DNA of 64,000 nucleotides from Eledone cirrhosa (taxonomy: Eukaryota): assembly GCA_964016885.1 (NCBI GenBank), contig OZ024743.1, positions 239,754,001 to 239,818,000 on the forward strand, in the 5' to 3' direction. The translations under genes and the position numbers were made by a program. The notes below the pieces were generated by a model that worked only from the letters and a program-made list of their open reading frames with translations, made no database searches and had not been told where the DNA came from. Every line of letters begins with the position of its first letter. The stretch's first letter is position 1. Positions 3,021 through 63,140 of the stretch are shown piece by piece.

Positions 3021-3215
3021 TAGGAACCAGTAAGACCCCGACAGCTGAGCTCAAGCCGTTTCGACGGCTAATTCTGGACTGAATTAGCCGTCGAAACAGC
3101 TTGAGCTCAGCTGTCGGGGTCTTACTGGTTCCTATTACCCACCTCTACTACCTCAAGTATTGAGTACTTTGGTGCGTTATAGTCCACCTGGTTCCTTACC
3201 ACATTTCCTTCGTTA
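3021..3215. mobile_element. PLE pLTR family A palindrome plus tail
   Basis: Inverted arms ggaaccagtaagacccc...ggggtcttactggttcc, centred near 3076, plus an ~80 bp tail. Both ends lie in (TA)n. Confidence 0.8.
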
Positions 3216-3316
3216 TATATATATATATATATATATATATATATATATATATATATATATATATATATATATATATATATATATATATATATTTTTTTTT
3301 TTTTTTTTTTTTTTTT

Positions 3317-3822
3317 AGTATATGTTGGTTGTTTACCGACACCTCAGTATGCATATTGGAGCACTCGACGAAGTACGCAGGTTGGTTTGGTTACTCCGGA
3401 GTAATGTAAAATAAAGTAATTAAGTCAAATATTTAAGATTTGGCTTCGTTTATTAAAGATGTACTGCTATATATATTTCGGTGACATCCATCATTGGCTG
3501 TGACCTCTTCAGGCAGTTCGAATTGGTGTGGTAGAGACCGGTACAGATGTTGTTAAAGTGTTTTACACATGTTGTTAAAGTGTTTTAATCATATATGATT
3601 CCAGTTCCTCAGAGAAATAACAACCCAACAAGGAGCTGGACATATCGGAGTATTGACGGAGTAAAACACTTTAACAACATGTGTACCTGTCTCTACCATA
3701 CCAATTCGAACTGCCTGAAGAGGTCACAGCCAATGATGGCTGTCACCGAAATATATATAGCAGTACATATTTAATAAACGAAGCCAAATCTTAAATATTT
3801 GACTTAATTACTTTATGTTATA
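3317..3822. mobile_element. PLE pLTR family B palindrome with an HHR on both strands
   Basis: Arms ~3405-3590 and ~3663-3820 are reverse complements. HHRs at 3463-3517 (-) and 3710-3764 (+). Confidence 0.8.
3710..3764 (+). ncRNA. minimal type I hammerhead ribozyme, family B
   Basis: actgc-CTGAAGA-GGTcACAGCCA atga TGGCTGTcACC-GAAA-TATATA-TA-gcagt. Confidence 0.85.
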
Positions 3823-4691
3823 TATATATATATATATACTTATATACGTTGCTCCAGTTTACTCAGCTGTAGAAACGTGTTGCGACGTCATGGGTGCCAA
3901 ACTGTATCGGTCATTGCCTTTACATTAGACAATATCGGTAACGTAAAGAGGGTGGTATCCACGGACATCTGCTGCCCTTCCACAAATAACCTTACTCAGT
4001 GCAAATAACCTTTCTATGTGCAAATCCCATGGTCATTTTTGACACACACACACACACACACACACACACACACACACACACACACACACACACACACACA
4101 CACACACACACACACACACACACACACACATATGTACAAGTCAAACCAACATAAGCCTTTTATTTCTAAATGTTCTAAACTATCTAAGTATTTGACTCTA
4201 ACCATTATCTTAAGTATTACCACCCCACATTAATATCTCAATTTGTATATGTGGATGTGTGTGTGTGTCTGTGGAGGTGGGTGTGAGTGTACGTCCAAGC
4301 CAACCTACATAAGTCTTTTTATTTGTAAATTTTCTACTCTAACCATAATTTTCAGTAGCCCCACTCCACATAAATTCCTCAATTTAAGAATGACCTGTAG
4401 TATCTATTTCATACTATTAACCTTAATTGAATATACATCTGACCAAGAATGCTTTTTGTGAAAATTAGTCATATGGGACTATTGTCATCTTGCCTGACGG
4501 TTTGAACTTTACAACAACACCTGCCTCTTTGAGGTCAAATACCAACCCTACTAGTATCTACAAACTGACCAATGAGAATTAAGACTATTCCTGCTGACAA
4601 CATTAAATTATTCCTAACAAGCTCATATGTCCCAAGGCTCTGATACCATCAACACTATAAACACAGAGCTGGCATATCTAAGAACTGACTA

Positions 4692-4747
4692 ACTGCCTGA
4701 TGAGGTCATAGCCATTCAGTGGCTATCATCGAAATATATATAGCAGT
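4692..4747 (+). ncRNA. minimal type I hammerhead ribozyme, family B variant
   Basis: actgc-CTGATGA-GGTcATAGCCA ttcag TGGCTATcATC-GAAA-TATATA-TA-gcagt. Helix II shows compensatory changes relative to the 3710 copy. Confidence 0.85.
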
Positions 4748-5776
4748 AAATAAAGGATTATGAGTTTATGCAATTGACTTATGTTTCGTCACTATATATA
4801 TATATATATATATATATATATATATATATATATATATATATATATATATATATATATATATATATATAAATACATACATAAATACATATATGTATATATG
4901 TACATATATGTATACATATATATATATAGATGTATATATATATATATATGTATATATATATGTACATATGTATATATATATGTTTATATATGTATATATA
5001 TATATATATATATATATACATATATATATGTATATATATATATATATATATATATATATATACATATATATATATATATATATATAAATATATATATATG
5101 TATATATATATGTATATATATGTATATATATATATATACATATATATATATATACATATATATATACATATATACATACGTATACATACACACACACCCA
5201 TATATATATATATAAATATATATATATATGGGTGTATCGTAGGGGGGGGGGGGGTACACGTCTATTAGAAGACAGATATCTTCTGCGAACGTGTGAAAAT
5301 ATGTATGCAAATGGCTGTGTGTTCGTTACATTTTTCAGTCTTACTCGTATATATCAGTCATATTCTCATAATAATACAATTCTCATAATAATGTGCCTGA
5401 ATATATGTGGTGGATGGTCCATTTATTAAATAAGGTTTTGCTAAGACGAATTTGAGGGGAAAGAGTTCGCCGGACATTGTAGGTCAAATAACCATAGTTT
5501 TATCTGGTACTTGTTACTTGACTGAAAGTGCATGGTTTAGTAGTTAAGGTGGGTTGTTCTCGATTGTAAGTACGTCAGACTCAAATCCAGTGCCGATTTG
5601 GATTCTTGTGCAAGACAGCTGCAAAAATAAGTTGGACTAATAATTCAAAGGGCAGCTTTTATATATATATATATATATATATAACAAAGGAATTGTGGTA
5701 AGGAACCAGATGGACCATAGCGCACCTGAGTACTCAATACTTAGGGTAGTAGAGTGGGAAATAGGAAAAAGTATGA

Positions 5777-5870
5777 CCCCGACGGCAGAGCTCAAGCCGT
5801 TTCGGCGGCTATTTCTGGACTAAATTAGAATGTTTAGCCTGGTGACTAAATAGCCGAACTTGTCAAGGGG
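5777..5870 (-). ncRNA. type I hammerhead ribozyme, family A, U3-A8 core variant
   Basis: cccc-TTGACAA-Gttcggctattt...aaatagccgcC-GAAA-CGGC ttgagctct GCCG-TC-gggg. Cleavage triplet GUC. Confidence 0.75.
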
Positions 5871-60200: not shown

Positions 60201-61459
60201 ATGTATACAATGTATAGACTGCATACATACAATGCTTACAACCATAATTACGCCCATACATACATATAAACATACATATAAACATACATATAAATATACA
60301 TACATACATACACGATAGACAGATAGGCAAAGAGACAAGCAAAGAGACGCTATATATATGTGTATGTATGTGTTTGTGTGTGTGTGTAGTATATATTTAA
60401 GAATAGGTGTATTCACGCAAGTAGCTGGGTTTTTAAAGCCGCGTGTTTGAATGTGTTTACGTGTCTGTGTATGCACTAAATATTTGAGATTATGTGTGTT
60501 CTTGCAGGTAGCTGTGTGTGTGTGTGTGTGTGTGTGTGTATGTCTGTGTGTGTATGTGTGTGTGTGTGTGTATGTGTGTATGTGTGTCTGTGTGTGTATG
60601 TGTCTGTCTGTGTGCGTCTGCATATGTGTGTGTCTGTGTATGTGTGTGTGTGTGCATGTATGTATGTGCGTGTGTGTGTGTATGTGTGTGGGTGCGTGTG
60701 TATGTGTGTGTGTGTGTGTGTATGTGTGTGTGTGTGTGTGTGTGTGTGTGTGTGTGTGTGTGTGTGTGTGTGTGTGTGTGTGTGTGTGTGTGTGTGTGTG
60801 TGTGTGTGTGTGTGTGTGTCGCACACGCTGTGAACGAAACTGCATGTGTATAAGTACTTCTAAGTATTTGCAACAAAACTATATTTCTATGTCCAAGCCT
60901 GTGCTACTGTGTCCATGTATTTGTGGCAATCTGTATTAGTATGTGCGTACATGTTGCTTTACACACACTTATACACATATATTTTTATGTATATAAATAC
61001 GTATAGTCCGTGTGTGTGTATGTGTGTGTATGTGTATGTACATATTTATACATGTACACACAAACACACGTAAACAAACAAACAAACACACACACACACA
61101 CACACACACAGACACGCACATATATATATATATGTATATACATATATATATATATATATATGTATATTTTATAAAAATAACTTCTATAATAAAACGAATA
61201 TACCTATTTACTACTAACGTATTGAGTGCCTTTTTTTATAGTGATCGTCTCCCGATTTACACCGGGATACGACATATATATATGTGTGTGTGTGTGTGTG
61301 TGTGTGTGTGTGTGTGTGTGTGTGTGTGTGTGTGTGTGTGTGTGTGTGTGTGTGTGTATACATATATATATATATATATATATATGTGTGTGTGTGTGTT
61401 AGTGTGTGTGTGTGTGCGTGTGTGCTTATGTTTGTGTATGTGTATGTACGGTTTCGTCG

Positions 61460-61730
61460 CTTCGTGGCTAGTGGGTTGGATTCACAAGCATGGTGTTAAA
61501 AGTTCGATTACCGGAGCGGGTGATGTGTGTATGTCCTTGAACAAGACACTTTTTTCCACGTTTCCTCCATTTCCATCAGATGTATCAGCCTTTGCCCTTT
61601 CGCTTGGACAACATATTATAATGCAGATGGGAGACTAGTGTGAAAAGCAACTGCTTGTCTTCCAACAAAGCCACAATGCCCAGCCATTTGCCTCGGGGGG
61701 TAAATTTCTAGATGCAAAACCCATAGATTT
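61460..61730 (+). mobile_element. old tRNA-SINE
   Basis: tggctagtgg A-box-like and gttcgattacc B-box-like motifs, then gtccttgaacaagacact. Related 3' part at 3850-4040. Confidence 0.55.
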
Positions 61731-62639
61731 TTTAGCTTGTATGAATACTATATATATATATATGTATATATACATATTTGTATACATGGATTATATACAT
61801 TAAATAGATATATATATATGCTTATATATATGTGTGTGTATATTCATACATACATACATACATACATATATATATATATATATATATATATATATATATA
61901 TATATATATATATATATATATCAGTGTGTGTGTGTGAGTGTGTGTATGTTTGTATACATAAATACATTCATATATACATACACACACACACCCATATATA
62001 CATACATACATACATATATATATATATATATATATATATATATATATATACTTGTACATTCACACATTCACACACACAGATACACATATATATATATATA
62101 TATATGTGTGTGTGTGTGTGTGTGTGTGTGTGTGTGTGTGTGTGTGAATAAAATGAACGTAAAAACAAAATTTGACAGGTAGATATTTAAGTAAATCGAT
62201 GCTATATCGTATATAGACAGACTGGCAGACACACGGACAGATAGAGATGTGAGTAGCTGGAGATGATGTTAAATATTAGTTATATATATTGATAAACACA
62301 AATGTGTATTTCTTTAGATGACTGCAAGAATATATATATATATATATATATATATTAATAAGAGAAATTCCAACTTTGTCTGATTTACTCGTTTTATTTA
62401 CAATCCTTTAAAATATATAATATGGTATTATAATGAAATAGTATGATAGAATATTAAATTCTAAGTGTTAATTGAACAAGTACTTTCATGCTTTCGCAAT
62501 CTTCATGTTCATAATATGTGGTGACAGTCGAGTTTGCAATTTTCAGTTGAAATAGATAGACTATCCAGACAGCTTCCAAAAATAATGGTCGCTTATAATA
62601 GGGTACGTCAAAATTATTTATAAAACTGTTTATATATTG

Positions 62640-62704
62640 TATTTTATCTGACGAAGGCATGCCATATTTTAATATGGTATCCCTGAAATATGTATAATGA
62701 AATA
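62640..62704 (+). ncRNA. hammerhead ribozyme, family C variant
   Basis: tattttat-CTGACGA-A-GGcATGCCATATT tt AATATGGTATcCCT-GAAA-tatgta-TA-atgaaata. Confidence 0.75.
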
Positions 62705-62946
62705 AATATGGTTTTATAAATATAGTTTCCATTTGTTTAATATCGTATATCTACTCCAAAAACTTGTCGAGTGCTTTATATCAGTTATAAAATATTTACT
62801 TGTTGTACCCCAACAATTTTAAATAAAACTTTTGCATATATATATATATATGAATTATATATATACATATACATATATATATATATATATATATATATAT
62901 ATATATATATATATATATATATATATATATATATATATATATATAT

Positions 62947-63140
62947 AACGAAGGAGATGTGGTAAGAAACAAGATGAATGATAACGCACTAGAGTACTCG
63001 ATACTTAGGGTAGTAGAGTGGGTAATAGGAAAAAGTTTTACCCCGACGGCAGAGCTCAAGCGTTTCGGCGGCCATTTCTGAACCAGAAATAACCGTCGAA
63101 ACGGCTTGAGCTCTGCCGTCGGGGTTAAACATTTTCCTAT
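62947..63140. mobile_element. pLTR family A palindrome plus tail
   Basis: Centre near 63081. Flanked by (TA)n. Confidence 0.8.

What the first reader, a model, noticed from the sequence alone, without database searches (positions are those of the whole stretch)
3021..63140. Variable palindrome centres with a fixed short-arm end point to a mechanism
Seen: family A copies invert at different points (near 3076, 6741, 28240, 38184, 45236, 63081). The short arm nearly always ends at the same ttccTA position, which merges into (TA)n, while the long arm has a further ~70-85 bp tail. Families C, F and M show the same asymmetry. Inference: each copy is an independent event in which the nascent cDNA folds back or switches template, and is resolved at an internal TA by microhomology or by a nick from the element's endonuclease.
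Basis: partly seen in the sequence, partly recalled or inferred. Interest (0 to 1): 0.7.

Follow-up and report, generated by a model that had tools for sequence, protein, structure and literature searches.

The report
Twin-primed Penelope stubs stop at promoter
The lopsided palindromes are real end pieces of a known kind of jumping gene (a Hydra-clade Penelope-like retrotransposon), and they likely form when two DNA copies, started at two fixed points of its RNA, run out near the RNA's predicted start and are joined head to head, not when one copy folds back on itself.

Summary
The observation largely holds. Family A is the 3' end (pseudo-LTR plus 80-nt tail) of a 3.1-kb Hydra-clade Penelope-like element (PLE); a full copy was found in the genome. 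Both ends are fixed at internal TAT sites next to (TA)n: 41 of 54 hits in 1 Mb of evenly spaced genome end there. The centres are not freely variable: 185 of 246 arms are 50-62 nt long (mode 58), though 84 of 89 junctions differ, so insertions are independent. Single-strand fold-back is disfavoured: the tail-less arm is often the longer (67 vs 35), and only 11 of 66 simple junctions allow hairpin priming. Best model: priming from both target strands at two RNA sites (shown in vitro for another PLE, PMC11167929), then end-joining with 0-2 nt overlap or short inserts. The 58-nt edge lies at an initiator-like A 31 nt after a TATA-like box (same spacing in a second family), suggesting run-off at the RNA start; the cap-G signal is modest (19/29, held-out 4/9) and no RNA data exist. 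The architecture is known, and this scan has already noted the same reading elsewhere in this genome.

The parts
3023..3080 (-). tail-less inverted arm, 58 nt, starts at site 1 beside (TA)n
3081..3213 (+). 52-nt arm plus 80-nt tail, blunt joint to the inverted arm
5684..6741 (-). 5'-truncated Hydra-clade PLE: end of the GIY-YIG frame (6524-6741), 3' UTR, pseudo-LTR with hammerhead-like motif, TATA-like box and initiator-like A (58 nt before site 1), tail 5684-5763
6742..6768 (+). 27-nt tail-less inverted arm of the same insertion
28062..28358 (-). family A palindrome with long arms (about 127 and 115 nt; 5-nt overlap by eye) and an internally deleted tail
38153..38315 (+). family A palindrome, arms 31 and 54 nt, 2-nt overlap, tail
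45103..45292 (-). family A palindrome, arms 58 and 56 nt, 1-nt overlap, tail
62948..63137 (-). family A palindrome, arms 55 and 54 nt, 2-nt insert, tail
63199..63330 (-). long tail-less arm of a second family ('F5'; stubs at 27468-27644, 46650-46816, 54503-54655) that shows a TATAAATA box upstream of its usual turning point
   Evidence: PLE protein of this family not looked for
28419..28890 (-). palindrome of another family with the same one-sided tail and a hammerhead-like core (by eye)
3330..3816 (-). palindrome of another family with one-sided tail and hammerhead-like core (by eye)
21182..21759 (+). palindrome of another family with one-sided tail
41884..42127 (+). palindrome of another family with one-sided 86-nt tail

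Best explanation
Each palindrome is one insertion of a Hydra-clade Penelope-like retrotransposon into (TA)n, likely built from two separately primed cDNAs that are joined head to head. Shown by sequence: element identity, the two fixed ends at internal TAT sites 80 nt apart, unique junctions, arms copied from the same source element, arm lengths piled at 50-62 nt. Inferred: the endonuclease cuts both strands of (TA)n; one 3' end primes at site 2 (tail end), the other at site 1, each helped by a 2-3 nt match; both cDNAs carry the same antisense sequence and usually stop near x = -58, the predicted transcription start in the 5' pseudo-LTR; their 3' ends, often with untemplated A or a cap-derived C, are joined with 0-2 nt overlap or short templated inserts (RT jumps or polymerase-theta-like end joining), and second strands are filled in. 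The tail is simply the RNA between the two priming sites. I put about 0.75 on the two-cDNA part and about 0.55 on run-off at the RNA start.
For: Full copy L031 has inverted 5' copy, pseudo-LTR, RT-GIY-YIG frame, pseudo-LTR, tail, and the tail runs on into the 5' UTR, so both ends are internal RNA sites. Hydra motifs against PMC8557442 section 11. Two-site internal initiation on both target strands shown in vitro for a Poseidon PLE (PMC11167929). Tail-less arm longer 67, equal 21, shorter 35 of 123. 11 of 66 simple junctions fit hairpin priming, 25 of 66 have a loop under 3 nt; untemplated A follows 10 of 18 left and 10 of 18 right arm ends (p 0.04 each). Rare variants shared by both arms 15 vs 0.8 in shuffled pairs. 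Inserts of 7 nt or more match nearby element sequence better than shuffles (7.9 vs 4.9 nt, 17 inserts). 185 of 246 arms 50-62 nt, 38 exactly 58, 8 above 63; 58 was again the mode in a held-out set (9 of 68). x = -58 is the A of TTAGT, TCAGT in 5 long arms, with TATTTA at -31; a second family stops 0 to +9 nt from an A 31 nt after TATAAATA in 46 of 68 arms. L230 stops exactly at -58 and continues from the start-codon region.
Against: No RNA run holds the element, so the start site is untested. The cap signature (extra C at arms of exactly 58) was 19 of 29 in the first set (p 0.001 against a 36% null) but 4 of 9 held out (p 0.42), and absent in the second family, where a palindromic AGCT at the centre confounds it (2 G, 8 A of 10). 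The TATA-like box of family A lies inside the hammerhead stem II and may be conserved for pairing; the 58-nt edge also lies just past that stem, so an RT stall is possible. Arms of 59-62 nt may be 58 plus added A, or a second start. 39 of 139 and 8 of 45 tail-bearing copies had no detectable inverted partner. Loci were chosen by tail identity, which favours young copies. Later trimming of hairpin loops or arm-to-arm conversion could alter junctions and shared variants. The in vitro work found initiation at sites not homologous to the cut DNA, whereas I invoke a 2-3 nt match.
Confidence: 0.65

Rival explanations
1. Fold-back or self-priming of one strand makes a hairpin, which the GIY-YIG endonuclease or a TA microhomology then resolves at sites 1 and 2 (the first reader's model; close to self-priming in PMC3846280 and endonuclease-mediated resolution in PMC8557442).
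For: Most centres are nearly symmetric; overlap is above chance (1.25 vs 0.61 nt; at least 2 nt in 28% vs 12%); arms share rare variants; equal arms 21 vs 7.7 expected.
Against: Only 11 of 66 simple junctions allow hairpin priming and in only 2 of those is the tail-bearing arm longer; 22 are blunt; 25 leave a loop under 3 nt; both arms carry untemplated A. The equal-arm excess is partly a caller artefact (several 61/61 pairs share the same non-reference bases).
Confidence: 0.12
2. Two cDNAs as in the best model, but the 58-nt edge is an RT stall at RNA structure or a bound protein (hammerhead stem II and its inner stem), not the RNA start.
For: The edge lies a few bases past the 3' strand of stem II; in the second family it coincides with the foot of stem I; cap signal not replicated.
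Against: Same 31-nt spacing from a TATA-like box in two families whose edges fall at different places in the ribozyme fold; pooled extra C 23 of 38, p 0.002; few arms pass the edge.
Confidence: 0.2
3. The stubs are a MITE-like or SINE-like palindromic unit amplified as a whole.
For: Modal size is uniform (about 190 bp), ends are fixed and flanked by TA.
Against: 84 distinct junctions among 89 insertions, none more than twice, even among copies 99% identical in the tail; arms continue into a PLE frame in long copies.
Confidence: 0.02
4. The palindromes are assembly or amplification artefacts.
For: Fold-back chimeras are a known sequencing artefact (recalled).
Against: Family-specific fixed ends, a one-sided tail, arms diverged 2-15% from each other; short-read contigs of one study show joints and loose ends at 3074-3085, the same edge (may be the source sample, so weak).
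Confidence: 0.01

Closest known systems
Hydra clade of EN+ Penelope-like elements, e.g. Hydra-1_Obim (Craig et al. 2021, PMC8557442; passages, sections 11 and 15, supplement passages seen)
   Same: RT then C-terminal GIY-YIG; RWR, DKT, CxCX5C, CxxC and CxH motifs, no CCHH; (TA)n targets; inverted 5'-truncated copy and one-sided tail. RT motifs resemble Hydra-1_Obim by eye.
   Different: Unit 3.09 kb (Hydra-1_Obim 2.5 kb); tail 80 nt rather than 30-40; hammerhead core is the U3-A8 variant; most insertions are 190-bp stubs with a sharp arm-length edge, which that paper's passages do not describe.
Poseidon_Ac in vitro system (Frangieh et al. 2024, PMC11167929; parts 1-2 of 4 read: abstract, main text, start of methods)
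   Same: Both target strands cut and extended at AT-rich DNA; RT starts at two internal RNA sites and the tail is the sequence between them; ribozyme cleavage not needed (only 1 of 246 arms here ends at the predicted cut).
   Different: They report no homology between RNA start site and cut DNA; here both sites are TAT. They leave the later steps open: joining of the two cDNAs and the stop point are what this data set addresses.
Adineta vaga and Drosophila virilis Penelope insertions (PMC3846280, PMC2377424; passages)
   Same: Inverted pseudo-LTRs, palindromic junctions, optional tail, promoter and start site inside the pseudo-LTR.
   Different: PMC3846280 explains the junction by self-priming; D. 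virilis has a TATA-less internal promoter; here geometry favours two cDNAs and an upstream TATA-like box.
LINE-1 twin priming and 5' untemplated G (as reviewed in PMC4859970; passages)
   Same: Second priming from the opposite target strand gives an inversion with small indels at the joint; an extra G marks reverse transcription of the cap.
   Different: In L1 the inverted piece is an upstream, non-overlapping part of the RNA (recalled) and there is a poly(A) tail; here both arms copy the same segment and start at fixed internal sites.

Membership tests
EN+ Penelope-like element | single frame with PLE-type RT followed by GIY-YIG endonuclease | tested here: met
   Motifs in frames of long copies; ESM Atlas first hits 0.93-0.94 with PF26215, GIY-YIG and RVT_1; 1,702 relatives at E <= 1e-20, many with PF26215. 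Pfam hmmscan gave nothing, PDB sequence search nothing, Foldseek only weak RT matches, E >= 0.017. All copies seen are interrupted.
EN+ Penelope-like element | pseudo-LTRs, inverted 5'-truncated copy and one-sided tail | tested here: met
   L031: 246-bp direct repeat at 97%, 930-bp inverted copy, tail; L035 partial tandem.
EN+ Penelope-like element | hammerhead ribozyme motif in the pseudo-LTR | tested here: inconclusive
   Type I fold with U3-A8 core found by eye (variant described in PMC4209133, part 1 of 4 read); position 7 takes all four bases; 93% of cells pair but no pair changes on both sides in 9 sequences; Rfam none; not the minimum-energy fold.
Hydra clade | RWK-like and DKT motifs; CxCX5C linker; no CCHH; CxxC and CxH around the E and N residues | tested here: met
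   All read in translations against section 11 of PMC8557442.
Hydra clade | insertion into (TA)n | tested here: met
   86 of 89 left and 80 of 89 right flanks are TATA.
Hydra clade | length generally under 3 kb | tested here: inconclusive
   Unit 3,091 bp, slightly above.
Hydra clade | placement in the RT phylogeny | not tested
   No tree was built; reference sequences were only seen in a supplement.
Neptune clade (my first guess) | CCHH motif within GIY-YIG and CX2-5CxxC linker | tested here: not met
   One cysteine between the GIY and YIG equivalents; linker is CxCX5C.
MITE / unit-amplified palindrome | copies share the same internal junction | tested here: not met
   84 distinct junctions of 89.
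L1-type twin priming | inverted part is a different, upstream part of the RNA | tested here: not met
   Both arms cover the segment next to site 1; a few long copies do hold extra internal inversions (L005, L038, L039).

The most novel reading that the evidence does not exclude
Penelope-like elements replicate through target-primed 'strong-stop' cDNAs: both RTs prime near the capped 5' end of the mRNA, most events abort as pairs of 58-nt run-off copies, and long copies need a strand transfer to the RNA's 3' end, where the hammerhead cut (x = -17) would leave a 41-nt terminal redundancy. The 5' copy of the ribozyme is incomplete on an RNA starting at -58, so only the 3' copy could cut. Pseudo-LTRs and partial tandems would then arise by an LTR-like jump, and genomic stubs would map PLE start sites without RNA data. 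For: the edge, L230's jump from -58, variants shared by both tails of L031. Against: no scar at -59 in 63 long arms, read-through RNA explains long copies equally well, and in the second family the start lies upstream of a complete ribozyme.
Probability: 0.22. Interest if true: 0.75.

Novelty: new member of a known kind. Interest (0 to 1): 0.4.

Why it matters
How PLEs build their inverted ends after initiation is stated as open in PMC8557442 and PMC11167929. A family with about 25 tail-bearing copies per Mb gives junction statistics that favour two joined cDNAs over self-priming and predict an exact RNA start, both testable with one CAGE library and the existing in vitro system. Practically, these stubs will be mis-annotated as MITEs or miRNA hairpins (Rfam gave only sub-threshold miRNA matches among the 150 of 554 rows shown). 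The architecture itself is not new.

Tried and rejected
Unmasked self-BLAST timed out. Rfam found no ribozyme in the element. Pfam, PDB sequence search and Foldseek did not name the protein. Neptune placement rejected on motifs. Ribozyme cut as the stop point rejected for family A (1 of 246 arms at 15-19 nt). Equal arm lengths as proof of one RNA molecule not used: confounded. Search for a jump scar at -59 in 63 long arms found none. No RNA holder listed; contigs cannot show a start. One tail search for the second family returned nothing. Arm lengths are uncorrelated overall (rho 0.10, p 0.33). Rows dropped: 11 of 100 and 3 of 37 two-armed insertions with gaps over 30 nt (nested or long copies, two of them window copies), and 28 of 96 second-family arms of other subfamilies or under 9 nt. 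Literature searches for the run-off or strong-stop reading of PLE stubs listed no paper that states it; subscription papers and bioRxiv supplements were not searchable.
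Full report
Observation. After masking microsatellites, self-comparison of the window shows seven family A copies and many other short palindromes between (TA)n tracts. Each family A copy has a tail-less arm starting at TTCC|TA and a partner arm with an 80-nt tail. Measured from that site (x = 0), the arm pairs are 59/5, 58/52, 27/about 1030, about 127/115, 31/54, 58/56 and 55/54 nt.

Identity. The frame at 6524-6741 (minus) ends like a GIY-YIG nuclease. A search of the own genome with 5684-6768 gave 55 matches (40 of 5,839 candidates scored); wherever an inverted arm was present it ended at the same position. 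L031 is near full length: 930-bp inverted copy, 246-bp pseudo-LTR, RT and GIY-YIG frame, pseudo-LTR, tail; the unit is 3,091 bp. In full copies the tail runs on into the 5' UTR, so both ends are internal RNA positions, and both read TATTT. TAT occurs at seven places between -60 and +250; only 0 and +80 are used. The translations show RWR, DKT, CxCX5C, CxxC and CxH and lack CCHH, the Hydra-clade diagnosis in PMC8557442 section 11; I had first guessed Neptune and took the Hydra lead from an earlier scan note. Profile libraries did not name the protein; the ESM Atlas, 1,702 relatives and weak RT fold matches agree with a PLE. A type I hammerhead with the U3-A8 core known from PLEs (PMC4209133) can be drawn upstream of site 1, without covariation support or an Rfam match.

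Ends are fixed genome-wide. In 100 evenly spaced 10-kb stretches, 41 of 54 family A hits end at site 1 or site 2; 25 tail-bearing copies were found, which would be some tens of thousands genome-wide. Flanks are TATA in 86 and 80 of 89 cases. Several other window families have two 3' ends 55-85 nt apart; their proteins were not sought.

Junctions. Loci were chosen by tail sequence alone plus the random stretches. Of 139 tail-bearing copies 100 had an inverted partner, and 89 were kept after dropping gaps over 30 nt; a held-out set gave 34 of 37. Overlap among simple junctions is small: 22 blunt, 27 with 1 nt, 17 with 2-6 nt of 66, about twice the null in the first set. 57 of 123 carry inserts; longer inserts often recopy nearby element sequence.

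Fold-back test. A tail-bearing cDNA folding on itself cannot give a tail-less arm longer than itself, yet that holds in 67 of 123 (equal 21, shorter 35), up to 2,951 vs 975 nt in L033. Hairpin priming needs paired bases and a loop; 11 of 66 simple junctions qualify and 25 leave a loop under 3 nt. Both arm ends show untemplated A (10 of 18 each), as expected if each has its own 3' end. Arms share rare variants (15 vs 0.8), so they come from one source element, or were converted later. This fits the in vitro result that a Poseidon PLE cuts and extends both strands and starts at two internal sites bounding the tail (PMC11167929), and fits less well the self-priming reading of PMC3846280.

The edge. 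185 of 246 arms are 50-62 nt, 38 exactly 58, 8 above 63, 1 at the predicted ribozyme cut. Position -58 is the A of an initiator-like TTAGT (TCAGT in five long arms) with a TATA-like box 31 nt upstream (the core-promoter motifs are recalled). In a second family 46 of 68 arms stop 0 to +9 nt from an A that lies 31 nt after TATAAATA. An extra G marks copied caps in L1 (PMC4859970); here the matching C follows 19 of 29 arms of 58 nt in the first set but only 4 of 9 held out, and is not seen in the second family. D. virilis Penelope also starts inside its pseudo-LTR (PMC2377424). No RNA run was listed. Run-off at the RNA start is therefore the likelier but unproven reading; a stall at stem II is the main rival.

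Long copies. About 3% of arms pass the edge. L230 stops at -58 and resumes at the start-codon region, L032 shows another jump to site 1, but 63 long arms show no scar at -59. Strand transfer and read-through RNA cannot be told apart here; the transfer version is my novel case.

Standing. The architecture is described for PLEs. I formed the two-cDNA and run-off reading before the look-up; the scan holds several unreviewed notes with the same reading from other pieces of this genome, which are not independent support. My searches listed no paper stating it; a 2026 octopus repeat survey (PMC13282606, passages) and a retrozyme preprint (10.64898/2026.07.22.740005, passages) do not discuss it in the passages seen. 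Verdict: real, a new family of a known kind, with useful but only partly new mechanistic evidence.

Noticed in passing
window 9109-10519 (+): Broken frames resembling the RT end and restriction-like endonuclease of an R4/NeSL-type LINE (recalled motif; Pfam silent).
   Followed up: no
window 19990-20466 (+): Frame resembling the C-terminal restriction-like endonuclease of a CRE-type LINE (recalled motif; Pfam silent).
   Followed up: no
window 42960-44617: Minisatellite of 61 copies of a 27-bp unit, 95% matches.
   Followed up: no
window 7819-7957, 26661-26833, 29021-29118, 33241-33376, 46290-46469, 50264-50411: A dispersed non-palindromic repeat of 100-170 bp in six copies, probably a SINE end.
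   Followed up: no
window 12193-13517 and 37589-38897: A local duplication of about 1.3 kb at 93-97%; the family A insertion at 38153-38315 is present in the second copy only, a possible filled/empty pair.
   Followed up: no
window 33945-34384: Symmetric 440-bp palindrome of a family with a single 3' end and no tail (35 of 39 hits end at one place), so head-to-head joining also occurs without the two-site signature.
   Followed up: partly
L109:1198-1697: Cluster of five tail-only family A pieces separated by (TA)n, in both orientations.
   Followed up: no
L067, L076, L276, L285: Both arms carry the same few non-reference bases just beyond x = -58, pointing to a source variant with a different upstream sequence or a second start.
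   Followed up: partly
L249, L257, L262, L269: In the second family some tail-less arms end in (CT)n/(GA)n rather than (TA)n, at a site that reads TCTCT, so the priming point shifts with the target repeat.
   Followed up: no
window 7417-7616: 200-base gap of N right after a 318-bp palindrome.
   Followed up: no
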